A DNA stretch of 64,000 nt, from the NCBI GenBank assembly GCA_000004985.1, contig GG738901.1. One strand, 5' to 3'. The stretch's first letter is position 1, and each line of letters begins with the position of its first letter. Positions 915 to 58,526 of the stretch are shown here, piece after piece. A model generated the notes under the pieces. That model was not told the DNA's origin, searched no databases, and saw nothing but the letters and a program-made list of their open reading frames with translations. The position numbers were made by a program, and so were the translations under genes. Source of the DNA: Naegleria gruberi (Eukaryota).

Positions 915-2633
915 ATGTCAGCAACACTAACAAACCTCTCACACGATGATCTGTTTAATATTCTCGATTTTATTTATCCCTTCTTTTCAGAATATGTCAA
1001 GGCAGTAGGAGGAAAACAATTCGAAGCTCAACATAAACGAGAATATTTAGCCAAGATAATTTTCGGAATTATGAAAGGAAATAATGAGAGGAAGGATTGG
1101 ATTTTGGATTTTCGTGGTAAACACTCTAAAATTATGGGAATTAAACTTGTTTCCAATTTGAATTATAATGAATACTTTTACAAATCGCTCGACGATTCGA
1201 ATGTTTATGTTCCTGCTTTATATTTGAGAAAGTTTTATGAGGATTTAGTTAAGGAAGTGAAGAATTGGTTACTCATTGCAAAGAATGGTCTTTTCTATGA
1301 AATTTTAATGCAAAGTCACATTCCAATAGTTCAACTTTTTTGGGAAAGTTTATTTCACATTATTTAGAGATACTCCTATTATTATGGGAAGTATGAAGTT
1401 TAAACAATATTACAATTTGGAATTGCCAATGATTCAGGATTATATTTTGGATAATATTATTGTGCATGTGATGAAGGCAGTGGAGGAACCAGTTTGGTTA
1501 TTCGAAACTTTTGTTTTCAATGAAATTTCATCTAAAGATGCCCATAGTTTGGGATTCAAAAGTTATCTACGACATTACCAGTTAGAAGAAGGTGAAAAAC
1601 ACGAATTGTATCAGGATGTTTTGGTGGAAAAGAAAGATTGGACGAGTTTGGCAACTGACAATCATTGGGAAGGTTTCTTGATGTTTCTTTCGGATTGTTT
1701 TAACAGATATCCAACTATTTTAAGTGATTCCAAATATGTAGACTTTATCAATTCTCAATTTGAAAAAGATCTAGGAAGGATTTCAAAATTTACTACTGAG
1801 CTTGCCAAATTCCTTTACCTTGACAGAAATATTCCGATTAATCCTATAATTTCAAACAAGTTGTTTACTCTGTTATCATTCACACCAGTTTTTAAACAAA
1901 TTCTAGAAAAGAAACTGAATGAATTAAGGATAACGACAAGGAAAGAAACTCGTTTCTTGCAAATCTCTTTTTAAGAGATTCACTACTTTCTTCCTCTATT
2001 TTAAATTTACAATTCGAAATAATTGACATGCATTTAGATTATATGGACGAATGTTTGGATAGTAAGGTGATTGATTCACACTTCTCAAAGTGCCCTGTAG
2101 TGACTTATTTCATAGAGGGTGCCCTAATGATGGAAGATTTAAGCGATCCATTGAAAAGTTCCATGATTGTTATTGAGTACATTGAGAAATTTAGGAAATT
2201 ATTCGAAAGGTTCAATAGAAAAAATTTTGGTTATTCAATTTATAGAAATATCATAACATTGTTTTCAAATTTCACCCGCAGTGGTCTTACAGAAGATTCA
2301 TATGAATGGCAGTAACGTTTTATAATCTTTACTGAACTATTCCAAAACCTGGTTTCAAATAAGATTGACGATTTACCCGAAACTGACCTATCTTTTATTT
2401 TCAGATATACCTCCAATGAAAAGATTATCACCTTCCTATTCGAACAACCACCACTATTCCATCAAATGTTAGCAAGATACATTCCAGATAGAATTAATGA
2501 AAATCTTTTGAAAATTATCGAGAAATATGTTGGCAATAACAATTCATATTATCAGAGGAATCAAATTGCAATATCCAATGATGAGAAAAATCTCAATGCT
2601 AAATCTACTACCACTTCTACTTTAAGATTATAA
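915..2633 (+). CDS. Hypothetical protein locus read as four ORF blocks; two phase-consistent introns plus one unresolved frame break
   Basis: ATG at 915 follows an A-run. ORF 915-1367 and ORF 1384-1974 overlap in open frames around a T6 run (1336-1341), which suggests a 1-nt indel. Proposed introns are 1952-2037 (GTTTCT...TTTAG, phase 1) and 2312-2404 (GTAACG...TTTTCAG, phase 2). The last exon, 2405-2633, ends ...STTTSTLRL*. No domain was recognised. Confidence 0.5.
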
Positions 2634-14327: not shown

Positions 14328-14400
14328 CGCCCCACGTGGGGCTCGAACCCACGACCGTTGGATTAAAAGTCCAACGCTCTACCGACTGAGCTAGCAGGGC
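14328..14400 (-). tRNA. tRNA-Lys(UUU): tRNA-Lys (anticodon UUU)
   Basis: The minus strand reads GCCCTGC TA GCTC AGTCGGTA GAGC G TTGGA CTTTTAA TCCAA CGGTC GTGGG TTCGAGC CCCAC GTGGGGC G. This is a canonical 73-nt cloverleaf with no encoded CCA. Confidence 0.92.
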
Positions 14401-28300: not shown

Positions 28301-29406
28301 TTATTCAGTCTTAGTCTTCTTCTTCTTGTTCCAATGAGGCTTACCACCACGTCCACCAAAGCCCTTTCTCTTATTCTTATTGCTTTCAGCAAACTTAGCT
28401 TCACAGGTCTTAGCAATATACTTTTCCAAATCTTCTGGAGCCATTTCCGAAGCAACAGCTTTACCTGGAAGTTCAATCTTTCCTTCATCGAATTGTTGTT
28501 TAAGAGAATCGAAAACTTCCTTTGATTCCAATCGAAGAATAGCCTTGGTCTTATCACCATCGAGTGGGAAATCAATAAACTTCAAACCATTCTTCTTGTT
28601 GTATGGCAATTTCTTGGAGAAATCAGCAAATCCGAACTTTTCGTCACCTTCAATTCCTTGAATGTGCAAGAAAAAGTTTTGCTTCAATTCAGTTTGCATA
28701 TTAGAAACATCTTCTTGCTTCTTTTCTTGATTCTTCTTTTGCTTACTTTCTTCACGTTCCTTTCTCTTTCTATCAAAATGTTGTTGCTTGGTTTCCAAGA
28801 GGAGAACAGATTCTCCAAACTTGAAGTCAGACTTTCCAGCCAATTCATTAACAGTAGATTCAGAATCGAATTCAATGAAAGCAGATCCCTTGAATGTACC
28901 ATTCTTTTCTCTTCTGGCTCTAACACAGACAACTTTACCAAAAGGTTCAAAAAGAGCCTTGATTGAATCGAGATTAGCAACACTTTCATCGAGTGGGAAT
29001 CCCTTAGCATATAAAGTACGAGCATTGCTAGTATCAACTTCTGGAAGAGCAGTGATTCTTCTAACCAACTTTCCTTCAGCATCAATTTCCAACATGGAAC
29101 TCTTCTTCAAAGCAGAAACAATAAGATCCATATCAGTAGAAATTTGTTTCATTCTATTAAAGGAAGCAATAGTCTTAAGTTCAACATCTATTCATCATCA
29201 TCATTATCAAATTATCATCATCATCAACAATAATATCAATGTATGGGATATCGGTTAATCAATATTGACAATATAAAACACTTACATCCTTCAGGATTGT
29301 TAGCAACGAGACTTCTCAAAAATTTATCCTTTGGAAGATTACTATCACTAAAGTAGAATTCAACTTGTTCACGAATCTTGTTTGAAGTAATTTCAGCGTC
29401 AGACAT
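28301..29406 (-). CDS. La protein (La motif + RRM), 2 exons
   Basis: Exons are 29406-29286 and 29187-28301, with a 98-nt intron (GTAAGT...GAATAG, phase 1) and a total of 1008 nt. The spliced product reads MSDAEITSNKIREQVEFYFSDSNLPKDKFLRSLVANNPEGYVELKTIASFNRMKQIS..., which is a canonical La motif. An RRM follows (RTLYAKGFP...KGSAFIEFDS), then a Lys/Glu-rich tail. Confidence 0.9.
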
Positions 29407-32623: not shown

Positions 32624-35600
32624 ATGTTGAACAATAAATCTGAGCGAAGTGGTGATGAAAAAGAGGAGGATCTTGTGATTCAGAATCCCTCTAACTGTAA
32701 ATGTAATAATCACAACAATGGTAAGCAGCATCTTGAAGGGACAAATTTAATGCAACAACCACAACCACTGTTGGATGATGATGTGAATGATATTCTTCAA
32801 TTATTAACAATAGAAAGTTGCAGTGGAGGTTGTAGCTTTGATTGTCTTAAATTCGAAGAGAAGGAAGCAGTCGAAGAGGATACCTGTAATCCAATGTCGC
32901 AACAACATCTTCCTTCCGATATCAAATCGGAACCAATTCTCCTACTGCTTACTGATAAGAAGGCAACATCAACAATGGATCACAACGTAAGTTATCATCA
33001 AACATGTAAATTAACGTGCCATTTGGGCGATTTGACTAATTCAGAAGTCGTATGCATCTAACAAACAAGGCGACAATTTTCATCATGAAAAAAGAACAGA
33101 CAATATCATCAACAAGAAGAACAAGGCTTCCTCATCATTAGGCAGTGCTTTTAAAGAAGATTTTGTAAATTTTGTTTCAGAATCCACAAGTTCCTCTTAC
33201 ATTCCGCAACAGCCATTCACAACATTATATTCGAAAAGAATGAAGGACGAAGAGATGGTGGAGAATAATCAATCTACTGTTAATGAAGATGGAATCAAGA
33301 CATCATCTGAAGCTAAACCAACACAATTTAACCACTCCTCACATCATCAAAGGCCTCATCATATTAACAAGGGTCTCGGAGAAGAACAACAATACAAATT
33401 TCCTTCATCTATTACACCACTTTCACTGGCCAATATTCATGCCAATGCATCGACTAACTTACTGCTAACTTCATCAACATTATTTAATTCTTCAAGTGAA
33501 TCACATGGTGGTGGAACCATTTCGAGAAGCTCCTCCAATACTTCAATGGATAGCTCCTCCTATTCACTCTTGAATAATCACCATCATCTAACCACATCTT
33601 CCTCACCCTCTGATGGTTTTCACTCAACTCTAAAATCCCTAGAAAATGTTCTCCCTCCATTCTTTACTCCATGCGTGCCACCTCATGCATCATTCAATTA
33701 CTATTCAGAACATTATTGGGGAGAACATCCCTTATCACTAACCTCCTTCTCTCCAATTCTTCATTATGAAAAGAAGTCATCTCTAACGATTATTTGTCGA
33801 TACACACCACAACAAACTAGGAATTCTCCAAGAAGGGAGAGACCTTCCTCTCAAAAAGAATTAATAGAGAATGAGATTTATTGTCTGAAAGTTTCACTGG
33901 ACAAACCATCCATTCCAAAGCTGGAAAGGGATGCAGAAATTTCTCGATTCTTGACCAATGAATTTTCTCAAGTGTTGGATCCAGCACAACAGGTTATTGT
34001 CAGTACTAAGGCCTATTTGTCTGATTATTTTATTCTCGTGAGGGAGTTTATTGATTGTGTTTCGTTGAGATCATTTATTGATAGATCGAAAACATATGCT
34101 AGAGCAGAACCAATTACTGATGAGAATTTTGAAACCTTAACAGATGATACTGTAACACTTCTCAATGAAGAACAACGAGTGAAAGAAAACATTACAATAT
34201 TGGAAAGTAATTTAACACTTGCTATTTCTATTTGTATGAGTGTTGCTCAACTGCATCACTCAAGAGTTTGTCATGCTGACATTAGGCCAGAAAATATAAT
34301 TGTAGAAGGACCTAAATGCAATATAAGATTGATTGATTTTGGAAAGAGTACATTCCTCCCTTTGGAGCATCCATTTTTATATACCGATAAAATTATTGGT
34401 AGTCAAATGTATTGTGCTCCAGAGGCAACAGGAAAGATTCCAAAACCAATAGGTTTCCACACTGATATATATTCACTTGGATTTGTTCTCTTTGAGTTAT
34501 TTTCCAAAGAACATCCATTTACCAAGTTTAGGACATTAGATTTCGTATTTCAACATTTGACTCAACAGCCAGAGTCCTTGTTTCAAAATCTAGCGAGAAG
34601 GTCTTTTATATCAGCCAATGAAGGAAACCTATTCACAGCTGCTACTAAAGCAATTTCAAGACTAATTACCAAAGCAATTCAAAAATCTATTGAGAAACGT
34701 TATTTGAGTATTTTTGGATTGAAACGAGATTTGGTCTACATACAGAATGCTATTCAACTAGAAGATATGGAAGCTCTTGAAAATTTTCAAGCTGGTATGA
34801 ATGATGTTCAAACAACTTTATCCATACCTTATGGTGTATATGGTAGAGAGGAAATTTTCAAAAAATTGGAACTGAAACTTGAAAATATGATGGAATCTAG
34901 TGAGCCAACGATTGTCCTTCTGGGGGGCTATAGTGGCATAGGTAAATCATGTATTGTTAAGGAGTTTAGGACAAGAAGTAAAACAGCAATACAATTCTTT
35001 GAGGCAAAATACGATCAACATATGAATGTACCTTACTATGCCATTATTTCCATATGTAAACAAATTATTGGCGACGTTCTTGGAGAATCTGAATCAGTGA
35101 TTAAGGATTTCAGATTCCAACTTGGTACACTTATCAATTCAGATCAATTAGAAATGTTGAGTGATGCAATTCCTGACATGTCATATTTATTTACAACTAA
35201 TGCAACCAAAAAGCATACCTCCCCATCAATGGGAGATCAGAATGGAGAGCGTATGAAGCTCTTTTCACAAGGAAGTAAGTAATATTTTGAATTTAACATT
35301 ATAACAATATTATATTGCTCAGTTATTCATCTCTTTAGTGTTTATACTCATTTAAAGAAAAAGAGGTTATGCATTTTCTTGGATGACTTGCAATGGACTG
35401 ATTTTGATAGCATGAAGCTATTGAAGGAAATTCTTGGAACTGGTTCTTGTGATACTGTTCCTCTTTTAATTATTGGAGCATATAGAAATAACGAAGTGGG
35501 AAAGGACCATCCTCTATTTTACTTTTTAGAAAATCTCAAACTTAAAGTGAACATTGAAGAAATTGAAGTTGTTGAGTTGACAGAAGATCAATCTAACATG

Positions 35601-38600
35601 ATTGTCTCAGAGTCTTTAAGGAAAAATAGAGCTGAAACAGAAGAACTAACCAAAATACTCTTCTCTAGGACGAATGGAAACCCCTTCTTTTTAAAGCAGT
35701 TATTGGCTGGTTTATTTAAGGACGGATCTATTTATTTCGATACTCAAACAGATACTATTACATGGGATAAAAAGAAAATAGAAAATGCAGAATACTCTGA
35801 AAATGTTATTGACTATCTCCTTGGACATTTGGAAAAATTACCAAAACAAACACAAGATATTCTTGCATTTGCTTCTTGCTTTGGAAATAAGTTTTCCAAT
35901 GAAGACATGCTCCACCTACTCAATCAGCAACAAGAAGAAAAGATAGACTTGATGCAACTTAAAGAAAGATTGAACTATGCGGTGAAGGAGGGATGGATTT
36001 CAAATATCAATTCTGGTAATTTACGATTTAATCATGATAGACTCCAACAAGCTGCTTATGAATCACTGCCTTTGAATGAAAGGTTGAGAATTCACTATAC
36101 CTATGGTAAGCAGCTTCTCAAAAAAGCAGAAGAAGATGATTCTTTGGAGGAACGTTTATTTGATATAGTTGTACAGTTAAATCACAAACATAATGATCCT
36201 GCTTTCTTGGAGAATAGAGATGAGAGAAGATTACTCATTGACCTCAATAATAGAGCTGCAAAGAAGGCTTTGGAAACATCATCTACAGATAAAGCCATTG
36301 GCTTTGTTTATATTGCAAGGCAAATTCTAGAACACGAACCAGACTGTTGGAGTGAAGAAACTTATAAGTTGGCTTTTGAGAGTTTACTAATTGTTGGTAA
36401 TTGTAACTATTCTGTAAATATAGAATTGGCAACCTCTCTATTCATGGAAGCTATTCAAAAAGCTCAAAACAAGACAGATCTTTATGAGGCATGCAACCAT
36501 GGATTGATGGCCTATCTTTCACAAGGAAAATATGAAGATGTGTTTAAAATTTTGACTGATCATGTATTTACTACATATGAAGAGTTGAATTTCCTTACTC
36601 AGGAGCATACTGTTGAATCCTTGACAACATGGATACTTAACAAGATGAAATACATGAAAGAACATGTGCTCGTTAATTTTACTCAAAAATCTGACATTCT
36701 CAATTTGCCAGATATTGATGATTTGGAAAAGTGGCATCTTATTTGTTTGCTCACTCAATCCTGTCCTGCTGTTTTTCATATGAATAACTCACTCAGCAAA
36801 CACTACTTTATGATTATGATATTAATATCGTCTGATATAGTTTTAAATAATGGCATTACTCCTCTTTCCCCATTGTTAATTTCAGTCTTTGCATGGTCTT
36901 GGTGTAATTTTGAGTTTTATCCTCAGATGAACATGTTCTTAGAGGCAGGATTAGAGATGGAAAAGACTAGATTCAGGAATGAGCATGAATTGGCAAGTTG
37001 CACATTGATGAAGTTGATGAGTTATTACTTTTCGCCAACAATTAACCCTCTTGAGGTGTGGAATATATCCGAGGAAGCCTTCTTATTGTCTGTGAAATCA
37101 AAGAACAAACACTATGGCGGTTTCTCTATTCTGTGGTATCCATTCCATCACTTATTCTATAGCCACGGAGATGTAAAGACTTCTATTGGATTGAGCTTGA
37201 ATTCAATTGAGATTTTCAAGAGAAATGGAAATGTTATGTTGATGGATGCCAGTAAAATGATACTGGAATTGAAATATGTTCTTTCAGGAGATGTAGACCA
37301 TTACCTGCCAACGTATGTAAGCCAAGTGAAGGAATATCCATTCTTTAGACAAATGCACTACTCGTTCAAGGGAATTTCACTCTATTTCCAAAATGATATT
37401 GAAAAATCTTTCAAGTGTATGGAAAAATCGTATGATTTTAGAGAAGACTCTGTTGGTATGTGTTCAAGCTGGATTGATTTAATCTTCCTAGGTTTAATCT
37501 CAGCTATCTTTTTGAGAAGTGCTCAAGAAAAGATTGAAAAAGCCCAAGAAATACTGAAATATTCTATAGAAAGATTGGAAATGATTTCCCAAGCTAATTC
37601 TTCTGTTTTTCTTGCTCCTTTGGAGTTCATAAGAGCCGAGACATTGTACTCAGAATATTGTAGAACAGGTGTCGAAAATACTAGAAAAATCATTTCTCAC
37701 TACAGAAAGAGTTATATTATGGCTGAAAAGGAAAGAAACACCTTTTTAGCTAGGCTGATTAATTTGAGAACAGGAGAGTTTTACAACAGTCTAGGTATGG
37801 ATGATGGTATTAGTGGAAACTACTTCCTTAGAGCTATGGAATCTTTTGAACAGTTTGGTGCTTCCATCGTTGTTGATTATATTTTGGAGAATTATTCAGG
37901 TCACATCGATGGCTATTCATCATTTAGTAATAGAAATCCTGAACAAGTATTCTCTAACACTTCTCTATCTGATGAAACAACAGATCACTCTCTTGCTGGA
38001 GTAACAAAGAGCAGAATTTCTGAATCAACAGAATTGGATTTTAGAGAGATTTTCATTTCAATTCTGCCAATTCTTTCAGAACAAACGTTATCACCAAGAT
38101 GTTGTTTGATTTTGAAGAGAGATTCAACAGTTTATGTAGATGCCGAATTTAATGCAGACCTGAATTCTATTGAAGCACTTTCGTCTACCAAACAATTCGA
38201 AAATAGTGATTTGGACAAATTTTCAGATTTATTCCCTCTCAAGATGATTCACAGAACTCTAAGATCCAGAACAGAGCAACAACTCGTATGGAATGACAAT
38301 GAGAAAGAGTATTACTTTGTGAAGAATGTAGTGGCCTCTGCTTTATCTATTCCTATCATGAAGAAAAAGACAGTCATAGGTATGCTTTTTATTATTATTT
38401 TATTTATATTATTTAATGTATTAAGGTTGTATATACTTGGAAAATAAGGAAACGAAGGATGTATTCACAACTGAAAAAATTAACCTTGCCAAACTTATCA
38501 TCTCGATCAGTTTGGACAATGCTGGAATTTTCACATCTATTAACAAATCCTATGCTAGGTTTTTACCTGCTGAATTCTTAAAGTTGCTTGGAAAGAGTCA

Positions 38601-39423
38601 CGTAACTAAGGTAAGGTTGGGCGATGCAGTTTCTAGAGAAATGACAGTGCTCTTCAGTGATATTTATGGATTTACAGAGATTATGGAGGGACTTTCTGCA
38701 AAGGATGGCTTTGCTTTTATTAATCTACTATTGAAGAGTATTGCACCTCCAATTTCAAGAAACTCTGGATTTATTGACAAGTTTGTTGGTGATGGAATAT
38801 TGGCATTGTTTATTGAACCGCAAGGAGCTGTCACTGCAGCTTTAGAAATGATTTCAGAATTGGAAGTTTTCAATAGTAGAAATAATACCAATGTAAAGTT
38901 GGGAGTTGGTTTGCATCATGGTATTGTTCAACTTGGTACGATTGGATATGAGCAACGATTGGATGCTACTGTTATTTCAGATACTGTGAACACAGCTAGC
39001 AGATGTGAATCTCTCACAAGAACTTTTCATTCACATATTCTAGTTACTAAACCAGTTATGGATGCTGTTACAGTGCCACACAGTGTGATAAGTACCGAGT
39101 TGGGTAAATTCATGCTGAAAGGAAAACACATACCTCATCAAATTTACAATATCGCTTCTAAATCATGGAAAGGAAGTGGTAGTGCTAAAGAATTCGCTTT
39201 ACTAAGCAAAGTTATTGATCTCTTCTCCAGGAGTGAATTTACCGAATCATTTGCCCTCGCAGAAACAATTCTCAAGAATACAAAGAACAATACCATTATA
39301 GCTGCATGCAACATGTATAAGGAAGCATCAACATTATACGGATCAGTTGTTTTACCAAGTGAATGGCAAGGTGAAATTCGGTTGACCAAGGATGGAGAAG
39401 TCAGAGAGTACTTTTCAAAATAA
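32624..39423 (+). CDS. Multidomain signalling protein: Ser/Thr kinase-like domain, AAA/STAND-type P-loop NTPase, helical/TPR-like region, GAF-like domain, class III adenylyl/guanylyl cyclase (4 exons, 2,215 aa)
   Basis: Exons are 32624-32986, 33045-35274, 35323-38379 and 38426-39423. The introns are 58, 48 and 46 nt (GTAAGT, GTAAGT and GTATGC ... AG), and the total is 6648 nt. Kinase strings are VCHADIRPENIIV, IDFGKS and MYCAPE. The P-loop is LLGGYSGIGKSCIV and the Walker B is LCIFLDDLQWTD. The GAF end, restored by splicing, is TVIGCIYLENKETKDVFTTEKINLAKLIISISLDNA. Cyclase strings are MTVLFSDIYGFTE, IDKFVGDGILALF and ISDTVNTASRCES. Confidence 0.85.
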
Positions 39424-39582: not shown

Positions 39583-42039
39583 ATGAAAAAACGACATTCA
39601 ACCTTTTCCACCACAATCAATCATCGAGATTTGATTAAATCATCTAATTTTAATTCATTATCTACTAGTAATATTCAATCATCATCATCACCAATATTGA
39701 GCACTACTTCTAGAAAAGGCTTCCGAGAACGACCACTCATCAAATTCATATTAAAACAACGTTCCAAACGATTGCAACAACAAGGCTCTAGTGAGTTTGC
39801 TGGTGCGGAAGTGGAAATTTTGAAGGCTTGTTGGAGAAAAATAGAGGAAGAGGAGATGAAGGACTATCGAGAAAATCTCTCGAATCGATTGGGGTTTTAT
39901 TTTGATGATGAGGAATTGTTGGCCATGTTCGGAAATCAATTGATGAAGGATGAAGAGGAACTACAGCAGAGGACGACAATGGATACTACCAACACTGAAC
40001 CAAGTTCGGCTGGTGGTGCTACTCTTGACAATTCTTCACTGAAGAGTGGTGACAGTGCTCGTTCATTGACAAGTTTCGGATCTGACTCGAAACTAAATTC
40101 GCCAATTAGTCCCAACCTCGACAAGAAGCATTTGCAGTCAACTTCATCGACCAAAAGCTCCACTTCATTTGCATCCTTCTCTGGTGCACCATCATCACTC
40201 ACACCAAGCCCAAACATTGAGGAGAACAAAAATCTTTCCTACCTCTACGATATTCATACTTTTCCTAGCAAGCTGAATCTGATACCAACCATGCATTATA
40301 ATGTGTTGGATGTTGTTGAGTTGTCCTCTGTACAGCAAATTGTAAATATAACAAGTCCTTCTTCGGAGATTGGGATACTTAAAGATTGTACAAATGATTC
40401 TTCTCCTACTGTAAATATTGAATCAACCACTTTTAGTCTCGAGATTTTAGATAGTTTTATTACTGTTGATTCTTTTGAAGATTTTTCAAATCCTTCATAT
40501 AATCCACTCAATATTAGACATTTATATTGTGATTATTGGTCCAACAAACTAGAATTCAAACAAAGGATCAGTAAATCTTCTCTTACTTCAAACAATAAGA
40601 AGGAAAATGAAAAATCAAAAAACTATATACCATTTGAAGAATTGGAAAAATGTAGAAATTGTACAGAACTCAAATTGAACAATAACAAGATTAGATCTCT
40701 AGATTCTAAACATTTTACCAATTTTGCACACTTGACAGAATTGAATCTATCTTCGAATAGAATGTCTAAAGCAAGACTGCCTGAGGATATTTTCTCACAT
40801 ATGCCACATTTGCAGAGGCTTTCTCTCGATTATATGGGTCTTAAGACTCTACCAAAATCAATTAACAAATTGGTAGAGCTTACCTACCTTTCACTTTCCT
40901 TTAACAAATTGAACACTTTCAACTTGCTACATGGAAAAGACAGACACTTGAATGATTTTTGGCCAAAATTGACCAATTTGGAGTACTTGAATTTGTCTGG
41001 AAATAGATTGAATAGATTTCCTTCAGAAATTTGTAATTGCAAATCATTGGAATTTTTGAGTTTGTCCAACAATAGAATAATTAACGAGATACCAAAGGAA
41101 ATTGAAAATCTCAAAAAATTAGCAATACTCTTCTTGAATGGAAACAAAGTTACTGCTCTTGATATTAATAGAAATTTGGAATTTTTAGAGAATTTGACCC
41201 ATTTGGAATTGGGTCACAATCCTAATATCCATGTGGTTCCACCTCCTGTTTACAATTTAACCAAATTAGAATCACTCTGTTTGAGCCATCTAACCATTAG
41301 TCATTTATCGGATGATATTGGAAAATTAAGAAATTTGACTCACTTGGATTTGTATGGCTCCAAACTAACTGGTCTTCCAAAGGGTATTTCACAGCTTATC
41401 AACCTTAGGAATTTGGATATGCGATATTGCAGAGGTATCAAGGAGTTCCCTATTGAATTGTTTGGTCAAAAAGTTTCAAGTAGCACTATCACTACTACCT
41501 CTCCAATGAAATCCCTTACTAGATTGAGTCTTAGCTATACAATGATAGAGAGCATTCCTGAGGATATTTCCTCTCTCCAGAGTTTACAAGCACTTTTGGT
41601 GAATGACTGTCCCTTGCTCGAAGAAATTAAGGGTATTGACAAGCTTGTCAATCTTGTAGAGTTTGACATCAGTCGTTGCATCTCCCTTGTTGAGCCTCCT
41701 TCTGATGTGTGTGAGAGAGGTCTTGCCCACATTAGAGGATATCTGAAAGAAAAGGACGATGGACCTTCTATTTTTTTAAAGTTTATTGGATCAGTATTTG
41801 GTGGAAATACCTCAAATAATTCCTCCACCAACAAGAAGAAACTACCTTCACCAATAGGCACAGAAAACAACCTCAAAGTGGAACACAATGAATTACTTGT
41901 TGCCTCACCAGTACCAAGCATTAATTCTGGAGATGATGATGGTGATAGTGATTCTGATGATGAGATTGGCGCATCTAAAAAGAAGAAACCAAGTCCAAGT
42001 GGCAGTACTGTCAAGTCATTATTTTCCTTTTGGAAATAA
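39583..42039 (+). CDS. Leucine-rich repeat protein (typical/SDS22-like LRRs, SHOC2-like array) with low-complexity N-terminus
   Basis: An 818-aa ORF starts at ATG after an A-run. About 15 repeats of the form LxxLxLxxNxLxxLPxxI run from ~residue 360. The tail is acidic and basic. Confidence 0.85.
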   Translation: MKKRHSTFSTTINHRDLIKSSNFNSLSTSNIQSSSSPILSTTSRKGFRERPLIKFILKQRSKRLQQQGSSEFAGAEVEILKACWRKIEEEEMKDYRENLSNRLGFYFDDEELLAMFGNQLMKDEEELQQRTTMDTTNTEPSSAGGATLDNSSLKSGDSARSLTSFGSDSKLNSPISPNLDKKHLQSTSSTKSSTSFASFSGAPSSLTPSPNIEENKNLSYLYDIHTFPSKLNLIPTMHYNVLDVVELSSVQQIVNITSPSSEIGILKDCTNDSSPTVNIESTTFSLEILDSFITVDSFEDFSNPSYNPLNIRHLYCDYWSNKLEFKQRISKSSLTSNNKKENEKSKNYIPFEELEKCRNCTELKLNNNKIRSLDSKHFTNFAHLTELNLSSNRMSKARLPEDIFSHMPHLQRLSLDYMGLKTLPKSINKLVELTYLSLSFNKLNTFNLLHGKDRHLNDFWPKLTNLEYLNLSGNRLNRFPSEICNCKSLEFLSLSNNRIINEIPKEIENLKKLAILFLNGNKVTALDINRNLEFLENLTHLELGHNPNIHVVPPPVYNLTKLESLCLSHLTISHLSDDIGKLRNLTHLDLYGSKLTGLPKGISQLINLRNLDMRYCRGIKEFPIELFGQKVSSSTITTTSPMKSLTRLSLSYTMIESIPEDISSLQSLQALLVNDCPLLEEIKGIDKLVNLVEFDISRCISLVEPPSDVCERGLAHIRGYLKEKDDGPSIFLKFIGSVFGGNTSNNSSTNKKKLPSPIGTENNLKVEHNELLVASPVPSINSGDDDGDSDSDDEIGASKKKKPSPSGSTVKSLFSFWK

Positions 42040-42137
42040 AGTGTTGAGTAAATAAAAACTGATGAAACATTTAGACATCACCAAATATAATGTCGTTTTT
42101 TCCCGTAAATGAGAAATATTTGCATTAAGAACAAGAT

Positions 42138-42209
42138 TCCCGTGTAGTCCAATGGCTAGGATACCTGGCTTTCACCCAGGAGGTCCGGGTTCAATTCCCG
42201 GCATGGGAG
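42138..42209 (+). tRNA. tRNA-Glu(UUC): tRNA-Glu (anticodon UUC)
   Basis: The sequence is TCCCGTG TA GTCC AATGGCTA GGAT A CCTGG CTTTCAC CCAGG AGGT CCGGG TTCAATT CCCGG CATGGGA G. This is a canonical 72-nt cloverleaf with no encoded CCA. Confidence 0.92.
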
Positions 42210-42214
42210 AATCG

Positions 42215-46660: not shown

Positions 46661-48030
46661 TCAGCGTCTCTTGACTCTTATTTTCTTCTTCTTTGTAGTA
46701 GGTACATTATATTCATCGTCATCCTCTTTCATTAGTAAGGGAACTTCATCTTTCAAAGATTCTGCAACAATATTACTGAAAGATTTCTCAAACTGAACAA
46801 TAGATTCAGGTTGTTTTGGTACAGAGGATGACAAAGAAGGAGCCAAACTAGCTTCTTCTTTCGGTTCTTCTTCTGGTGTGGGTTTAGCAGAGATGCATTC
46901 CTTACATATATTGAATTTAATATCTAGTGGATAATCAAATACAAGTTGAGAAACAGCTTTGCTGATAGTAGTTTCTTTAAAATCTAAATTAGAAGGATTG
47001 TGTTTCTGGGTGAAAAATATTGGACTAGTGTCAAGTTGTTTACAATTCAAATCTTGTAAGGTAGATTCAATTTGATGTTCTGCAGTGATAAGGGATGTAA
47101 TATTCCTGAAATGAATGACTTTTTCAAAAGCATTTTTGATTCCTTGCATGTTTTCAATGAGACCTGACATGGTTGAGTATTGATCTTGAACAATTGCCAT
47201 TCTCTCTTGATGTTCTGATTGGCTTTTGTCAAGAATTTCTTTTCTTTTGTCTTCCACTTGTGCCAAATAGTTGTCAATCATAGTATTAACCCTCATTTCG
47301 TAAGTTTCTTGATTACTGACTAGTTTAGTTTGGAGAGAGCCAATCTTTTCCAATGCAACATACAAGAATTCAATATCTTGATCAACTTGCTCAATCTTGT
47401 TAGACATTCCTGCCTTAGCCTCTTCCATATGTTCATCAATTGGGACACATGTATGATTACTATGATTAGTTGATAAAGAACACAAATGACAAACTTATGT
47501 CTCTTACATTTTCCAACAGTTAGAATTGTTCCAAGTGGAGCTTTTTTATGAGAAGCAAAGAACTTGGGAGCATGAATGGATGTGAAACATTCCTCACAGA
47601 ATCTACTATTACAATCCTCACATTCAACTTGAACAATGTTAGTTTCACAATTGGCACAAGTTTCTCCCTTCTCCCTCTCCATCATATAATTTTCTACAGT
47701 ACTCTTGAGATCGTAATTAATAGGAAAGACACTTGGTACATCTTCAGAATGATTGACTTTACATTCCTTGTTGCAAGAGGGACAATTGAAACAAATTCCT
47801 TCCTTCTTGTTACTTTGATCACTTGTTGTTCCATACAATTTGTTGATCTTTGTTTGATTTCCCAGCACAGGAGCTTGAAGAAATGGTTCTTTGAGTTTTA
47901 ACTTTTTAAAATTGATATTTGCCATAATGCATCGGGTGCACATTGAATGACCACAAGGTAAAACTCTTGGATCTTGAAGAAGTTCAAAGCAAAACTTGCA
48001 TGAAAGTGATTCCTCGTCAATTACTAACAT
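46661..48030 (-). CDS. RING / B-box / coiled-coil (TRIM-like) protein; reading frame broken once inside the second B-box
   Basis: The RING is CKFCFELLQDPRVLPCGHSMCTRCI...CPSC. B-box 1 is CANCETNIVQVECEDCNSRFCEECFTSIHAPKFFASH. Then CKRHK (frame A) abuts VCHLCSLSTNHSNHTCVPIDEH (frame B, which opens at 47494), and a long coiled coil follows. ORFs 47320-48030 and 46661-47485 overlap in different frames, and no intron can fit. Confidence 0.7.
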
Positions 48031-50120: not shown

Positions 50121-51413
50121 TCAAATATTTAATATTATGGAAATATCAGAAAATGAACTATTTCGAATCAGGTCTGAATATTTGGAAAAGAATGGTAGTG
50201 AGTTTTCAATCCAGATAGTGTTTGTATCTGATAGATACCTCACTTTTCTTATCTTTCCTAATGCAACAACCATATTCCTGAACTTGATCATGCATAGCCC
50301 ACTACTTTGACATTTTTCAAAGTTTGTTACAAAGGTTGGTTGTCGCGTTGATTGGAAACTTGTTTCTTTCAAACTGGGTTTGTTTAAAAGCACATCATTG
50401 AATGGCTTGAATTCAATTAGAAGTGATTCATGGTTTGACTTGGATGGATTAGTTTGGAGTACTCGACATATTAATGCTCTCTGTCCACAATAAATTTTAA
50501 ATTCTCTTTCCTTAGAAAAATCAACGGCTGAAAGAGGGTTGTGAATTGTGAGCTCGACCCAAAAGGAGTCCACCACTACTTAAGATCCTTTGGATTTATC
50601 AAACCAATTTCCTAACAACGCTCCTCTCAACAACCTCATTTCGTTCGAACTTCGAGTTTTATACTTCAGTGATTGTAAATTAATAGGAACTAATTGACCA
50701 GCATATGCTCTTTCCCAGTCTATTGCATCATTGAATGAAGAATATCCATAAGATGGATTTCTTTCAATTTTTAAACTAGTTGGATTTTCAGAATTAATGT
50801 CAACAGTTCCCAAATGTGTTAAATATCCACTCTCGATTTTCACCAATACGTTTGTGCCATAATAATTCTTAAATGAGTTAATTGAAGAACATAAAGGTGG
50901 CTGATTTTTCAAATTTTCATAATTCAAGTTTGGACCTAAACTTCGTAGCCATTCCAATAGTTCATTTGATTCATTAGAAGTCTCCACTCTTTTCAAATAT
51001 CTGGATAAATTGTCGTCGCTTGAATAGCCAGCGAATGAAACTACTTTGAAAATCAAATTTCTTTTGATTAGTTTATCGAATTCATTCTCAAAATCATATA
51101 TTTGAATTGTTGGATGAACTAGCACAAGGACATTTCTGATCGATGTAGAATTGTTGATAATTAACAGAATATTCTGAAACATTTCAAAATTATTATTATG
51201 ACTATTAATTGCAATAATACAAGCATCTGCTATGCAACATAATCGGAAGGCACTTGGTACTGACAATCGTTCCAAAATTGCAAAATTTATTTGCAATTTG
51301 TTGATTAGAAACCGATCATATGCAAAAACAGAGCTTGTTCCTCTTCTATAATCAATTTCACCAAGCAGTCCGAACAATGCAACTGACAAACAAGGTGGAT
51401 CATCTATCGTCAT
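50121..51413 (-). CDS. EF1A/eRF3/HBS1-family-like pseudo-GTPase (G-like domain without GTPase motifs plus beta-barrel domains II and III), interrupted by one in-frame TAA
   Basis: ORFs 50580-51413 and 50121-50576 are in the same frame, separated only by TAA at 50580-50582. The G-like strings are SVALFGLLGEIDYRRGTSS, CCIADACIIAINS and NVLVLVHPTIQ. Domain II is GTNVLVKIESGYLTHLG...AYAGQLVPINLQSL...LLRGALLG. Domain III is FWVELTIHNPLS...KIYCGQRALICRV...SGLCMIKFRNMVVALGKIRKV, compare lGRFavRd..tvAvGvI. Confidence 0.7.
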
Positions 51414-51644: not shown

Positions 51645-53587
51645 ATGGTAGAAATAAAGAAGGAAAAGAAGTCAAAACAATCTCATCAATTACATGAGAA
51701 GCACAAGAAGCAACCACTCTTGGAGAAGACTTCTCAATCATCTGTGCCAAAGTATGAAGACATTGTAAAGCACAAGATCAGACCTTCCTATCCATCACCA
51801 ATTATTGAGAAGGGAAAGGATAAGAACTTTGAGGAATTGGTAAAACATTCACTTGATGAAATTCTCAAACTCAAACACAAAGAAAAGGCTCACAGTTCAT
51901 TCTTGGGAACACCTGAGAGAATACTCAATTGTGAAGAGGATATTGTTGAACAGAGATCCAAGGTAGAAATTCCTCAATCCTGTAAAACTCCACAGGAAGT
52001 TATCTCAAAAGTTTCTTCCTACTTTAATGGTGTGTTAGATAATGCAAGTCCAATCATGTTGGAGAATGTTCATCCTCCTTCAAATATTCCAGCAATTATT
52101 TCAACTCTATTTGCTTCGCTGTACAATGTTGGTATGGTACAAGATGAATTTTCATGGAATGTTGTGCTAACAGAGATTGAAACTATTGGAATGATGGCTA
52201 AATTGATTGGTTGGGATGCCAAGAAAGCTAATGGTGTATTTACCTTTGGTGGAACAGGAAATGAGTTGGTAAGTTTTAATGACTAATCTATTTCTAACAC
52301 CATGATGATTATCTAATACAGTACGGAATCAAAGTTGCCCTAACAAGAGCCTTGGGAATGGACTACCGTTACAAGGGTATTAGAGAAAATGTAAAGATTT
52401 TCGTTTCAGAAATTGGCCACTATTGTAAATTCAATGTTACAGATTGGCTAGGCATTGGTATGGACAATGTTGTTCCAATTAGTATTACAGAAGATAACTC
52501 TATGAATTATGATGATCTCTATGATAAATTATCCAAATCTGTCAAGAATGGTGAAAAGATTGCTGCCATTGTCTCAACTTGTGGTTCCACAGACCCATTC
52601 TCTGTTGATGATGTTTCAGAAATTGTAAAGATTAGAGATAGAATTGTTGAGGAGAATAATCTAGATTACAAACCATTTGTCTATGCTGATTCAGTCATTG
52701 GTTGGCCATGGCTCTTCTTTAAGACCTATAACTTTGAAGAGAATCCACTTCAAATCGAAGCTGACTATGTCTTGCCAGCAATCAAGTCAGTTCTCTCCAA
52801 AATGGAAAAGTTAGAATTGGCAGATGCTGTAGGATTAGATTTCCACAAGACTGGTTTCTGCCACTACATTTGTAGCTGTGTAATGTTCAAGGATGGAAAA
52901 GAGTTCGAAGAAAACCTATCCAGACCGAAAGACTTTGCTCAATATCTGTACAACTTTTCAGTTTACAAACCAGGAACATACACTCTCGAATGTTCAAGAG
53001 CTGCATCTTGTCTCGCTGCATTTAGTACCATTCACTTGTTTGGTGTTGAAGGTTATCAATCACTCATAGCTCACTTGATAAGTGTTCAACATGCTCTTCG
53101 AACAAACCTCACAGAACAGATGAAGAATGTGGCCATTGTTAATGATTTGGACAATGGTTTTGTTTCCTTGTTCAGAGTCTATCCACAAGGAGTTGATGCC
53201 AAGAAGGAATTTGAAAAGGAGTTGAATGGTCAACTCTCCGATGATGAAATTAACAAGTACAATGAATATCAAAAGCACATTGCCAATGTTCTCCATCTGA
53301 AGAGAGTACAAGAAGATGGTCCAGCTCTATCCTATACACGTTGCTTTAGAAAGAACAAGAATGGCTGTCCAATTTCTGCTCTCAAGGTCTTCCCTATGAG
53401 TCCATTCTGCTCAAAGGACATGATGATTAATCATGTTGTTCCCTTCATCAAGGATACTGTTGAGCAAGTAGGCTCACAAGAAGATATGGAAGAACACAAG
53501 AAGAAGGTTGAGAGTGAAGATCATCCAAAGTGGGCCTATCCAAGACATAGACACTTTGAGAATGTTACCCTCCACAATACATGGTGA
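51645..53587 (+). CDS. Group II pyridoxal-phosphate-dependent decarboxylase (2 exons)
   Basis: Exons are 51645-52268 and 52322-53587, with a 53-nt intron (GTAAGT...ATACAG, phase 0) and a total of 1890 nt. Matching strings are FTFGGTGNELYGIKVALTRA and the PLP-lysine motif GLDFHKTGFCHYICSCVMF (DFHK class, as in diaminobutyrate/tyrosine decarboxylase-like enzymes). Confidence 0.85.
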
Positions 53588-57239: not shown

Positions 57240-58526
57240 CTAATTGCTTGTAATTTCATTAATCTTACCAACAAAGAGAACACTCTGAGTTGGAACGTGA
57301 TGCAAAATAAAAGCAAAAGGTCTGTCAGCAATGAATTCATAAACCTCCTCAGATGCAGCCCTTCTCTTTCGTTTACAAGCTACGGCAGTTGCAGCACTTG
57401 CCACTGTTCCTGACTCATCTACTTGAATGCATGCCTTGTGAATTATTTGACTGACACATACACCATCAACTTGTGGATTGGAGAGCATATTGGAAAAATC
57501 AGCATTGGTTGGACTAAACAATCTATTGATTTCGAATGGTTTCTTGGCTATAGTTGGAATGATATTGTCAAATTGCTTTTCAAATTTGAATTTTGGAATT
57601 TGAATTCTGTTCATTTTGACTGATTCACTTGGATTGAGTCGACTAATATCGGTCAACTTGGATTGAAGCCACTTGTTAAATTCTGTTTCGTTTTCTTCAT
57701 CAATCTCTAAATCATCATTTGGTTTAATAAATGTCATACAATATTCTTCATCTGTGTATGGTAATTGTAAAATTTGATAATCATCCATTTCTTCATAGAG
57801 GAATTTTGACTTGCAATCTTCCAAACTCATCATTTGACAGTTGCATTCTCCATTCAAGGTGTTAAATGATTTTTCAATAGTTCTATTCTTGTTAAATTGA
57901 TGTTTCCACTTTCCATTAAAGTAAATTGCATTTACAATGACCATAAGTGTGTCTGAATCCAATTTAGATATTAAATTCTTGATATTATTCTTAGTATTGG
58001 ATGCAACCCATGCATTGATATTCTTCACTTCTATATTGGCCATACCCTTAAAGTTTGCCAATTGAGTTTGAGAATCAAATTGGTCAACCAACTCATTAAT
58101 AAATTCATTCTTAACACCAAGAGATTTTTCCAGATAAATTCTATTGGCAATTGATAAAACGCTCTCATTTTGAACAATATTCTTAATCATACCCGAATAT
58201 TGCTTCAATTCACTTTCCTTCCATTTTTGGAATTGCTCAACTGCATTTTCCATTTTACAACTATTAAAACTTTCTCTCAAAAACAAGCCATCAATCATTT
58301 CCCTCAATGTTTCTCCACCTGTTCCCAACATGCAATTCATCATTGCAATATAAATCGAAAATGGTGAAATGATCAAATTTCCATTTCCATTTTCCTGCAC
58401 AAATTGACCAAACAATGCAGAGGAAAATTCATTCTGGGCCAACAACATGTTATTCTGTGCTTGTTTCTTATTATTGGAAGCATTGTTTCTAGTACTTGAT
58501 AATTTCTTACTGTTTACCTTGACCAT
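57240..58526 (-). CDS. Serpin (intracellular type) with polybasic reactive-centre loop
   Basis: A 428-aa ORF. Serpin strings are SPFSIYIAMMNCMLGTGGET, NAIYFNGKWKHQFNKNRT and FIADRPFAFILHHVPTQSVLFVGKI. The hinge and RCL read ESGTVASAATAVACKRKRRAAS. The N-terminus is hydrophilic, with no signal peptide. Confidence 0.9.
   Translation of the reverse strand: MVKVNSKKLSSTRNNASNNKKQAQNNMLLAQNEFSSALFGQFVQENGNGNLIISPFSIYIAMMNCMLGTGGETLREMIDGLFLRESFNSCKMENAVEQFQKWKESELKQYSGMIKNIVQNESVLSIANRIYLEKSLGVKNEFINELVDQFDSQTQLANFKGMANIEVKNINAWVASNTKNNIKNLISKLDSDTLMVIVNAIYFNGKWKHQFNKNRTIEKSFNTLNGECNCQMMSLEDCKSKFLYEEMDDYQILQLPYTDEEYCMTFIKPNDDLEIDEENETEFNKWLQSKLTDISRLNPSESVKMNRIQIPKFKFEKQFDNIIPTIAKKPFEINRLFSPTNADFSNMLSNPQVDGVCVSQIIHKACIQVDESGTVASAATAVACKRKRRAASEEVYEFIADRPFAFILHHVPTQSVLFVGKINEITSN

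What the first reader, a model, noticed from the sequence alone, without database searches (positions are those of the whole stretch)
50121..51413. Translation-GTPase-like pseudo-GTPase with a single in-frame TAA at the domain II/III boundary
A 429-codon reading frame is continuous except for one TAA (50580-50582, minus strand), reading ...LGNWFDKSKGS * VVVDSFWVELTIHNP... Both halves align to one protein family, with eEF1A/eRF3/HBS1 domain II before the stop and domain III after it. They are therefore parts of one ancestral gene. The G domain has lost GxxxxGKS, DxxG and NKxD, as in Ski7-like adaptors. No GT...AG intron of plausible length can remove the stop; the only candidate is 26 nt. The options are stop-codon readthrough, a very recent pseudogene, or a base-call error. 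A termination/rescue-factor homolog that itself needs readthrough would be notable.
Basis: partly seen in the sequence, partly recalled or inferred. Interest (0 to 1): 0.7.

Follow-up and report, generated by a model that had tools for sequence, protein, structure and literature searches.

The report
Naegleria eEF1A-like pseudo-GTPase with nonsense codon
This is a Naegleria gruberi gene from a small, amoeba-specific family of dead relatives of translation factor eEF1A, and it carries one very recent premature TAA stop that is most likely an ordinary nonsense mutation or a sequencing error, not programmed readthrough.

Summary
On the minus strand, 50121-51413 is one reading frame of 277 + 152 sense codons, broken only by TAA at 50580-50582 and ending in TGA. 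The window is Naegleria gruberi. The upstream part is the annotated 277-aa hypothetical protein NAEGRDRAFT_81360.

Only three homologs were found among billions of proteins: two N. gruberi paralogs and one metagenome protein. All three read straight through the stop position and reach the same C-terminal end, so the two halves were one gene.

The part after the stop is the better conserved half and shows no extra lesion or rate acceleration. The stop is therefore very young, or an error, or read through.

No plausible intron removes it. Two real introns in this window start GTAAGT, end CAG, and are 48 and 53 nt long. Readthrough has no support: UAA-G context, no downstream RNA structure, and TAA is the usual terminator here.

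The family resembles eEF1A only remotely (collinear hhalign match far above controls; low-confidence model with a G-domain fold). It lacks the G1, G3 and G4 motifs and matches no Pfam model.

Verdict: a young nonsense allele or pseudogene (possibly a consensus error) in a new, lineage-specific eEF1A-like pseudo-GTPase family. Interest is modest.

The parts
50121..51413 (-). Whole interrupted reading frame: ATG, 277 codons, TAA, 152 codons, TGA. This is the ancestral full-length gene of about 429 aa.
   Evidence: Single tblastn HSPs of P0002 and P0003 span it.
50583..51413 (-). Upstream 277 codons, identical to the annotated hypothetical protein NAEGRDRAFT_81360 of Naegleria gruberi (P0001).
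   Evidence: 100% identity to P0001 over 277 aa.
50934..51392 (-). G-domain-like region (residues ~8-160) with beta-alpha-beta topology. It has no P-loop, DxxG or NKxD motif.
50583..50906 (-). Region collinear with eEF1A domain II (residues ~170-277). The assignment is weak.
   Evidence: Collinear hhalign alignment only: KVLSG opposite RVETG, PG opposite PGDNVGF, G.L.GN opposite RRGNVCGD. AF2 pLDDT is below 50 here.
50580..50582 (-). In-frame TAA (context UCU UAA GUA). It sits in a variable-length linker, opposite K, M and C in the homologs and opposite Cys335 of yeast eEF1A.
50124..50579 (-). Downstream 152 sense codons. This is the best conserved part of the family (VDSFW, FEK, GLGK, PFFSK, DISI), is beta-rich, and is collinear with eEF1A domain III.
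   Evidence: 17 of the 31 invariant columns of A2 lie here. Identity to homologs is 34/25/31% here against 22/18/18% upstream. The Tajima test gives 13 vs 15 unique changes. hhalign places it on eEF1A 358-440, score 18.0.
50121..50123 (-). TGA that ends the full-length frame, at the same position as the C-terminus of P0002.

Best explanation
The locus is one member of a very small, Naegleria-type-specific family of proteins of about 350-440 aa. The family descends from an eEF1A-like translational GTPase and has lost every nucleotide-binding motif, so it is a pseudo-GTPase, presumably a binding or scaffold protein rather than an enzyme.

In this copy a single base substitution in the variable linker between the domain II-like and domain III-like parts created a TAA. 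The change is evolutionarily very recent. Nothing downstream has decayed, and the downstream domain is the most conserved part of the family.

I take the TAA to be a genuine termination codon. As assembled, the gene would yield a 277-aa product lacking the conserved C-terminal domain, from an mRNA with a 3'UTR at least ~460 nt long. The copy is therefore a nascent pseudogene or a nonsense allele, possibly one haplotype of a heterozygous locus.

Shown: the stop, the family, the uninterrupted homologs, the lack of decay, and the lack of intron or readthrough signals. Inferred: that the TAA is real in the organism rather than a consensus error, that it terminates, and the scaffold function.
For: - Stop and frame.
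- Organism and annotation, with the model ending at the TAA.
- The family has only four members, and none is interrupted at the stop column.
- No decay after the stop. Downstream identity to homologs (34/25/31%) is higher than upstream (22/18/18%). The Tajima relative-rate test downstream gives 13 vs 15 unique changes, no acceleration, while the upstream part is accelerated (37 vs 14, chi2 10.4).
- The absence of a second stop limits neutral divergence since the lesion to below about 0.13 substitutions per site at 95%.
- No intron. The gene contains no GTAAG or GTATG donor. Every in-frame GT/GC..AG pair that removes the stop has a non-consensus donor, and the shorter candidates examined (69-75 nt) delete residues conserved across the family, such as G268. 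Two verified local introns are GTAAGT..CAG, 48 and 53 nt.
- No readthrough signal. The context is UAA followed by G, and folding of 50460-50600 gives z = 0.27. TAA terminates 12 of 18 long ORFs in the window.
- eEF1A relationship. Motif loss.
- Literature: N. gruberi carries several highly divergent eEF1A duplicates (PMC4342817). Naegleria is described as mainly a heterozygous diploid (PMC9928731), which makes a nonsense allele in a collapsed assembly plausible.
Against: - No reads, second strain, transcript or close ortholog could be examined. A real mutation cannot be told from a consensus error, nor a fixed lesion from a heterozygous one.
- A perfectly intact and well conserved downstream domain is also what programmed readthrough would predict.
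- The eEF1A homology is remote. The pairwise hhalign E-value is only 2e-4 to 1.2e-3 and probability 20-46%. Pfam and PDB HMMER searches are negative, and the family profile gave a spurious-looking CERT START hit at E 0.005. The AF2 model has mean pLDDT 41.
Confidence: 0.6

Rival explanations
1. Sequencing or assembly error. The organism has a sense codon here (for example AAA, CAA, GAA, TAT, TTA or TCA, each one step from TAA), and the gene is an intact 429-aa member of the family.
For: There is a single lesion, and the downstream domain is fully intact and well conserved, with no rate acceleration. The gene ends exactly where P0002 ends. No independent sequence of this locus is available to confirm the T.
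Against: It is a substitution inside non-repetitive sequence of ordinary composition, not a homopolymer. From my own background knowledge, not tested here, real loss-of-function alleles in a heterozygous, long-cultured clonal strain are expected to outnumber consensus substitution errors that happen to create a stop.
Confidence: 0.22
2. Programmed or functionally relevant stop-codon readthrough. Ribosomes read through UAA at a useful frequency, producing a 277-aa form (G-like plus domain II-like) and a 429-aa full-length form.
For: The 152 downstream codons are open, in frame, and the most conserved part of the family. This pattern is required for readthrough but is not specific to it.
Against: By established knowledge of eukaryotic termination, UAA is the least leaky stop and a purine at +4 favours termination; here the context is UAA-G. 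There is no CARYYA or CUAG-type motif. The downstream RNA is no more structured than shuffled sequence, z = 0.27. TAA is the commonest genuine terminator in the window. All three homologs have ordinary sense codons at this variable linker position, so the stop is not a conserved feature. A text search of the paper library for 'Naegleria gruberi' plus 'readthrough' returned 9 listed papers, none with a title or abstract about stop-codon readthrough in Naegleria.
Confidence: 0.06
3. The TAA is removed from the mRNA by an unusual intron or by RNA editing.
For: In-frame introns that contain a TAA do occur in this window: the 48-nt intron at 35275-35322 splits an AAA_16 domain. A GTAGTG sits immediately 3' of the TAA.
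Against: That GT lies after the stop, so it cannot remove it. The gene has no GTAAG or GTATG donor. The only short pair, 26 nt, is out of frame. The next in-frame candidates, 69-75 nt, have poor donors (GCGTTG, GTTCGA) and would delete the conserved G.L.GNW/YF block. The linker length with the stop (13 residues) already matches the paralogs (12 residues). The metagenome homolog is intronless. The flanks of the TAA are relatively GC-rich coding-like sequence, unlike the two AT-rich real introns.
Confidence: 0.03
4. The truncation is adaptive. The 277-aa product is the functional protein, and the downstream ORF is a not-yet-decayed remnant or a separately expressed piece.
For: The annotated model is the 277-aa protein. 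The upstream part of this copy has evolved faster than its homolog, 37 vs 14 unique changes, which could reflect a change of function.
Against: The lost C-terminal region holds 17 of the 31 family-invariant positions. The downstream ORF has no early ATG; the first Met is about 55 codons from the end, so separate expression is implausible. Nothing here distinguishes this from simple loss of function.
Confidence: 0.07

Closest known systems
eEF1A (eukaryotic/archaeal EF1A clade of translational GTPases; yeast eEF1A, PDB 1F60)
   Same: hhalign gives a collinear alignment over about 320 columns, from switch II through domain III. It includes the IKNM-like block (P0002 'SIKNMFRVVCLSDYAII' opposite 'FIKNMITGTSQADCAIL'), KVLSG opposite RVETG, and GLGKV.KV opposite VAVGVIKSV. 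The predicted N-terminal domain has a G-domain fold, and trGTPases align over 165-178 residues. Overall size, about 430 aa, is similar.
   Different: Identity is only about 20%. There is no Pfam GTP_EFTU, D2 or D3 hit. G1 (GxxxxGKS), G3 (DxxG) and G4 (NKxD) are all absent, so GTP binding and hydrolysis are not expected. The match to bacterial EF-Tu is negligible, score 19.2.
Ski7 / HBS1LV3-type pseudo-GTPase adaptors of the eRF3/Hbs1 subfamily
   Different: From my background knowledge, Ski7 keeps a P-loop and binds GTP, and its adaptor function lies in a long N-terminal extension that binds the exosome and Ski complex. Here the G-like domain starts at about residue 8, with no extension, and the P-loop is gone. 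No specific affinity to the Hbs1/eRF3 branch was demonstrated.
Divergent lineage-specific eEF1A duplicates of Naegleria gruberi (Atkinson 2015, PMC4342817)
   Same: [quoted passage not shown] The present family fits as an extreme end of the same duplication tendency.
   Different: These four proteins are too divergent for HMM-based trGTPase classification (no Pfam hit). I did not check that survey's supplementary tables for these accessions, so whether it counted them is unknown.
Programmed stop-codon readthrough genes (e.g. TMV-type UAG-CARYYA, UGA-CUAG, Drosophila/fungal readthrough extensions)
   Same: A long, conserved, in-frame ORF follows a stop codon.
   Different: The stop is UAA-G, with no known stimulatory motif or structure. 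The stop is not conserved in any homolog. It interrupts an ancestral domain architecture rather than adding an extension.

Membership tests
Translational GTPase, EF1A/eRF3/Hbs1 clade | G1 P-loop [AG]xxxxGK[ST] | tested here: not met
   A regex search finds it in none of the four family members. The aligned position reads LFGLLGEIDY in the query and LIGDHSDHSE in P0004.
Translational GTPase, EF1A/eRF3/Hbs1 clade | G3 DxxG (switch II) and G4 [NT]KxD | tested here: not met
   Neither motif occurs at the aligned positions, and there is no NKxD anywhere. The only DxxG is an unrelated one at residue 57 of P0003.
Translational GTPase, EF1A/eRF3/Hbs1 clade | Significant match to Pfam GTP_EFTU / GTP_EFTU_D2 / GTP_EFTU_D3, or to solved trGTPase sequences | tested here: not met
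   Pfam returns no family even at E <= 10 for the query, and no trGTPase family for P0002-P0004. phmmer and hmmsearch against the PDB find no trGTPase.
Translational GTPase, EF1A/eRF3/Hbs1 clade | Collinear profile-level homology across the G domain, domain II and domain III | tested here: met
   hhalign of A2 against yeast eEF1A scores 33.8, E 1.2e-3, over 320 columns. Against a 3-sequence eEF1A/EF-Tu profile it scores 39.9, E 2e-4, probability 46%. Controls: reversed alignment 12.0; 100 column shuffles max 26.0; 100 block shuffles max 22.1; 31 real decoy proteins max 21.5. The signal comes mainly from the G domain; the downstream half alone scores 18.0, E 0.11.
Translational GTPase, EF1A/eRF3/Hbs1 clade | Three-domain fold: G domain plus two beta-barrels | tested here: inconclusive
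Ski7-like pseudo-GTPase adaptor | Long N-terminal exosome/Ski-complex-binding extension ahead of the GTPase-like domain | tested here: not met
   The first beta-strand of the G-like domain starts at about residue 8-9 in the query, P0002 and P0004. The Ski7 architecture is from my background knowledge.
Ski7-like pseudo-GTPase adaptor | Phylogenetic placement within the Hbs1/eRF3 branch | not tested
Programmed stop-codon readthrough gene | Leaky stop context or downstream stimulatory RNA structure | tested here: not met
   The context is UCU UAA GUA GUG. The MFE of 50460-50600 is -26.7 kcal/mol against a shuffle mean of -27.7, z = 0.27.
Programmed stop-codon readthrough gene | Stop codon conserved in orthologs, with purifying selection on the extension | tested here: not met
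   All three homologs have sense codons (K, M, C) at the column. No close ortholog exists in the collections searched, so dN/dS could not be computed.
Programmed stop-codon readthrough gene | Translation past the stop observed (Ribo-seq, peptides) | not testable with these tools
   No expression or proteomic data were accessible. The locus tag NAEGRDRAFT_81360 appears in no paper in the searched library.
Pseudogene / nonsense allele | Disabling lesion relative to intact homologs | tested here: met
   One TAA at codon 278 of about 429 removes the most conserved third of the protein.
Pseudogene / nonsense allele | Further lesions or relaxed constraint downstream of the first lesion | tested here: not met
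   There is no other stop or frameshift, and the Tajima test downstream gives 13 vs 15. If this is a pseudogene it is very young, with neutral d below ~0.13.

The most novel reading that the evidence does not exclude
Naegleria has evolved a private family of eEF1A-derived proteins that have lost all nucleotide-binding motifs but keep a strongly conserved domain III-like module. In this member a UAA in the interdomain linker would be decoded at low efficiency, setting the ratio of a truncated (G-like plus II-like) form to a full-length form. That would make it a translation-factor relative whose own expression reports on termination fidelity.
Probability: 0.05. Interest if true: 0.75.

Novelty: new member of a known kind. 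Interest (0 to 1): 0.3.

Why it matters
As a stop-codon anomaly it matters little. A single, very recent nonsense codon in a redundant, fast-evolving, lineage-specific paralog is what mutation or consensus error produces routinely, and nothing points to recoding.

The by-product is of more interest. Four 'hypothetical' proteins with no Pfam domain, three of them from N. gruberi, can now be tentatively read as extreme, motif-less derivatives of eEF1A.

If the homology is confirmed, the conserved C-terminal module would be the place to look for a partner such as a tRNA-like ligand or an eRF1/Pelota-like protein. On the practical side, the annotated 277-aa model NAEGRDRAFT_81360 should be flagged as a truncated or possibly mis-sequenced gene whose ancestral form is 429 aa.

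Tried and rejected
1. Alternative genetic code (TAA as sense, as in ciliates). Rejected: the window is N. gruberi, long ORFs are intact under the standard code, and 12 of 18 end in TAA.

2. Intron removal of the stop. I enumerated all GT/GC..AG pairs of 20-600 nt that restore an open frame, 219 in all. None has a GTAAG or GTATG donor. Rejected.

3. Codon-usage log-likelihood for the downstream 152 codons. It was uninformative: 0.14 in frame against 0.15 in another frame, because the stretch is too short.

4. Single-sequence AF2 model. pLDDT was 33, unusable. The 4-sequence run reached only pLDDT 41.

5. Direct sequence searches for a trGTPase link (Pfam at E <= 10; phmmer and hmmsearch against the PDB). 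All negative. They produced only noise: NAA40, eL38, CERT START at E 0.005, IL-18 and a Ski2 beta-barrel at E 0.06.

6. Searches for orthologs or other sequences of the locus. The 5.8e9-protein word-indexed search ran twice and the exhaustive HMMER scan of 1.84e9 representatives ran once. I also ran a JGI metagenome scan with family peptide patterns, a scan with the exact DNA flanking the stop, and an exact-protein contig look-up. These yielded only two paralogs and one metagenome homolog, and no second copy of this locus.

7. Contig look-ups for the N. gruberi paralogs P0003 and P0004. Not on record, so their gene structures could not be inspected.

8. Synteny between the metagenome contig L001 and the window. 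None.

9. Two-gene interpretation. Rejected because the downstream ORF has no early ATG, and homologs align as single HSPs across the stop.

Full report
**What is in the sequence.** On the minus strand, 51413..50121 translates as ATG, 277 sense codons, TAA (50582..50580), 152 sense codons, then TGA (50123..50121). The only slip is 152 rather than 151 downstream codons. The other two frames of the downstream stretch are full of stops. At this base composition (33% G+C) a stop-free run of 152 codons has a chance of roughly 1e-5 (my arithmetic). Antisense ORFs of about 155 aa do occur inside real genes in this window, so openness alone is not proof. Homology settles the matter (see the family paragraph).

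**Organism and annotation.** The upstream 277 codons are 100% identical to the hypothetical protein NAEGRDRAFT_81360 of Naegleria gruberi. That was the only hit among 5.8 billion proteins. The public gene model therefore stops at this TAA. The window is a compact eukaryotic region. It contains a PLP-decarboxylase, a UvrD-type helicase, a RING/B-box protein, a serpin, an LRR protein, a kinase-STAND-cyclase gene and two tRNA genes. The standard code applies: 12 of 18 long ORFs end in TAA.

**A tiny family, uninterrupted elsewhere.** An exhaustive HMMER scan of 1.84 billion representative proteins with the joined 430-residue sequence found only two relatives besides the protein itself.
- P0002 (436 aa, E 1.7e-11) matches in two stretches, the best-scoring one being the downstream half (query 279-427); tblastn against the window then aligns it across both halves in one HSP.
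- P0003 (353 aa, E 6.4e-8) matches in one stretch, query 147-413, that runs across the stop.

P0003 is an N. gruberi paralog (XP_002679280). P0002 comes from an ENA metagenome contig with 35% G+C, where the gene is intronless. A profile search added a third N. gruberi member, P0004, 419 aa.

In the alignments all three read through the stop column with ordinary residues (K, M, C), inside a linker of variable length. P0002 ends '...DISILNV' where the query frame ends '...DISIILNI'. tblastn of P0002 and P0003 against the window gives single HSPs spanning the TAA, at E 1.3e-16 and 9.6e-12. The two halves are therefore one ancestral gene of about 429 codons.

**State of the downstream half.** The downstream part is the better conserved part of the family.
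- 17 of the 31 invariant columns lie in it.
- Its identity to P0002, P0004 and P0003 is 34, 25 and 31%, against 22, 18 and 18% upstream.
- A Tajima relative-rate test (query vs P0002, outgroup P0004) shows no excess of query-specific changes downstream (13 vs 15).
- The upstream part of this copy is accelerated (37 vs 14, chi2 10.4).
- There is no second stop and no frameshift. About 5.2% of possible substitutions in these codons would create a stop, so the absence of one limits neutral divergence since inactivation to below about 0.13 substitutions per site at 95%.

Whatever the TAA is, it is young relative to the history of the gene.

**Can the stop be removed?** Two genuine introns in the window serve as a local reference.
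- 52269-52321 (+) is 53 nt, GTAAGT...ACAG, and joins the two PLP-decarboxylase ORFs in the right frames.
- 35275-35322 (+) is 48 nt, GTAAGT...CTCAG. It is in frame, contains a TAA, and splits an AAA_16 domain between two ORFs.

Both are AT-rich and have the consensus donor. The gene under study has no GTAAG or GTATG anywhere. The GTAGTG next to the stop lies 3' of it. The shortest in-frame candidates (69-75 nt, donors GCGTTG and GTTCGA) would delete the conserved G.L.GNW/YF block. The linker already has the family's length with the stop codon counted. Splicing is rejected.

**Readthrough.** The context is UCU UAA GUA. By established knowledge of eukaryotic termination, UAA is the tightest stop and a purine at +4 strengthens it. 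None of the known stimulators (CARYYA, CUAG, +4 C) is present. The 141 nt around and downstream of the stop fold no better than shuffled sequence, z = 0.27. TAA is the normal terminator here. The stop is not conserved in any homolog. A text search of the held paper library for 'Naegleria gruberi' plus 'readthrough' returned 9 listed papers, none with a title or abstract about stop-codon readthrough in Naegleria. Readthrough is not excluded, but it has no positive support beyond the intact downstream ORF, which the alternatives explain equally well.

**Is it eEF1A-like?** Ordinary searches say nothing.
- Pfam returns no family even at E <= 10.
- PDB phmmer and hmmsearch find no trGTPase, only noise, including a CERT START hit at E 0.005.

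Profile-profile comparison gives a different picture.
- hhalign of the 4-member alignment against yeast eEF1A gives one collinear alignment of 320 columns, query 39-391 to eEF1A 85-441, score 33.8, E 1.2e-3.
- Against a small eEF1A/EF-Tu profile the score is 39.9, E 2e-4, probability 46%.
- Controls are far lower: reversed alignment 12.0; 100 column shuffles max 26.0; 100 block shuffles max 22.1; 31 real decoy proteins, including Ras, RecA and CheY, max 21.5 over 25 columns.

The aligned blocks make sense. P0002 'SIKNMFRVVCLSDYAII' lies opposite 'FIKNMITGTSQADCAIL', KVLSG opposite RVETG, and GLGKV.KV opposite VAVGVIKSV. The stop lies opposite Cys335, at the domain II/III junction of eEF1A (domain limits are from my background knowledge of 1F60).

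The weak points are these. The significance comes from the G-like domain (upstream half alone 34.8; downstream half alone 18.0, E 0.11, though on the correct region 358-440). Domains II and III are not confidently modelled. I rate the eEF1A descent as probable, about 0.75-0.8, not proven. All four members lack G1, G3 and G4, so 'pseudo-GTPase' is apt if the homology holds. Atkinson (2015) already noted several highly divergent eEF1A versions in N. gruberi (PMC4342817).

**What does not follow.** Nothing ties the family specifically to eRF3, Hbs1 or Ski7. There is no Ski7-type N-terminal adaptor region, since the G-like domain starts at about residue 8. By my background knowledge Ski7 keeps its P-loop, and this family does not. 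Calling the protein a 'termination/rescue-factor homolog' is therefore an over-reading.

**Most likely account.** A lineage-specific eEF1A-derived pseudo-GTPase paralog acquired one substitution to TAA in a tolerant linker. Read literally, the gene now encodes a 277-aa product without its most conserved domain, which makes it a nascent pseudogene or nonsense allele. Naegleria is described as mainly a heterozygous diploid (PMC9928731), so the assembly may carry one of two alleles.

A consensus error is the main rival, and these tools cannot separate the two. No reads, transcripts, second strains or close orthologs are in any collection searched. My weights are:
- real recent nonsense mutation, about 0.6;
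- sequence error, about 0.2;
- truncated but functional product, about 0.07;
- functional readthrough, about 0.06;
- splicing or editing, about 0.03.

**Verdict.** This is a new member of known kinds, a trGTPase-derived pseudo-GTPase and a nonsense-interrupted gene. Interest is modest and rests mainly on the previously unrecognised family.

Noticed in passing
window 33240-39423 (+), intron 35275-35322: Two large same-frame ORFs (680 and 1022+ aa) are separated by a single TAA at 35280-35282. This turns out to be an ordinary 48-nt in-frame intron (GTAAGT...CTCAG) that contains the TAA and splits an AAA_16/STAND NTPase domain. With the adjoining ORF 38437-39423 (adenylate/guanylate cyclase domain), the locus looks like one large kinase-STAND-cyclase signalling gene.
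   Followed up: partly
window 51645-53587 (+), intron 52269-52321: The neighbouring PLP-dependent decarboxylase gene is split by a 53-nt GTAAGT...ACAG intron that joins the two ORFs in the correct frames. I used it as a local intron reference.
   Followed up: yes
window 1923-2633 (+), TAA at 2313-2315: This is a third same-frame ORF pair (130 + 105 codons) separated by one TAA. No GTAAGT is obvious at the stop. I did not determine whether it is coding at all.
   Followed up: no
window 14328-14400 (-) and 42137-42210 (+): tRNA-Lys(UUU) and tRNA-Glu(UUC) genes. Both would be near-cognate for UAA, but they are ordinary tRNAs, and no suppressor tRNA is present in the window.
   Followed up: no
window 57240-58526 (-): A full-length serpin gene (Pfam Serpin, E 3.7e-83).
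   Followed up: no
window 46661-48030 (-): A RING finger plus B-box protein (47320-48030), with an overlapping ORF downstream of it on the minus strand (46661-47485) in another frame. This is probably one gene with an intron or frameshift.
   Followed up: no
window 18805-19281 (-), 28788-29258 (+), 41535-42014 (-): Antisense ORFs of 156-159 aa lie inside or opposite longer ORFs. In this genome, open frames of about 150 codons are not by themselves evidence of a gene.
   Followed up: no
P0003 (N. gruberi XP_002679280, not in window): This paralog's annotated model starts at 'MNKALVVSDYAII', about 77 residues into the family alignment relative to its close paralog P0004. Its N-terminus is probably mis-annotated or degraded. 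The DNA could not be fetched.
   Followed up: partly
upstream part of the gene, window 50583-51413 (-): The G-like and domain II-like part of this copy has accumulated many more unique changes than P0002 (37 vs 14, outgroup P0004), while the part after the stop has not (13 vs 15). The reason for this asymmetry is unexplained.
   Followed up: partly
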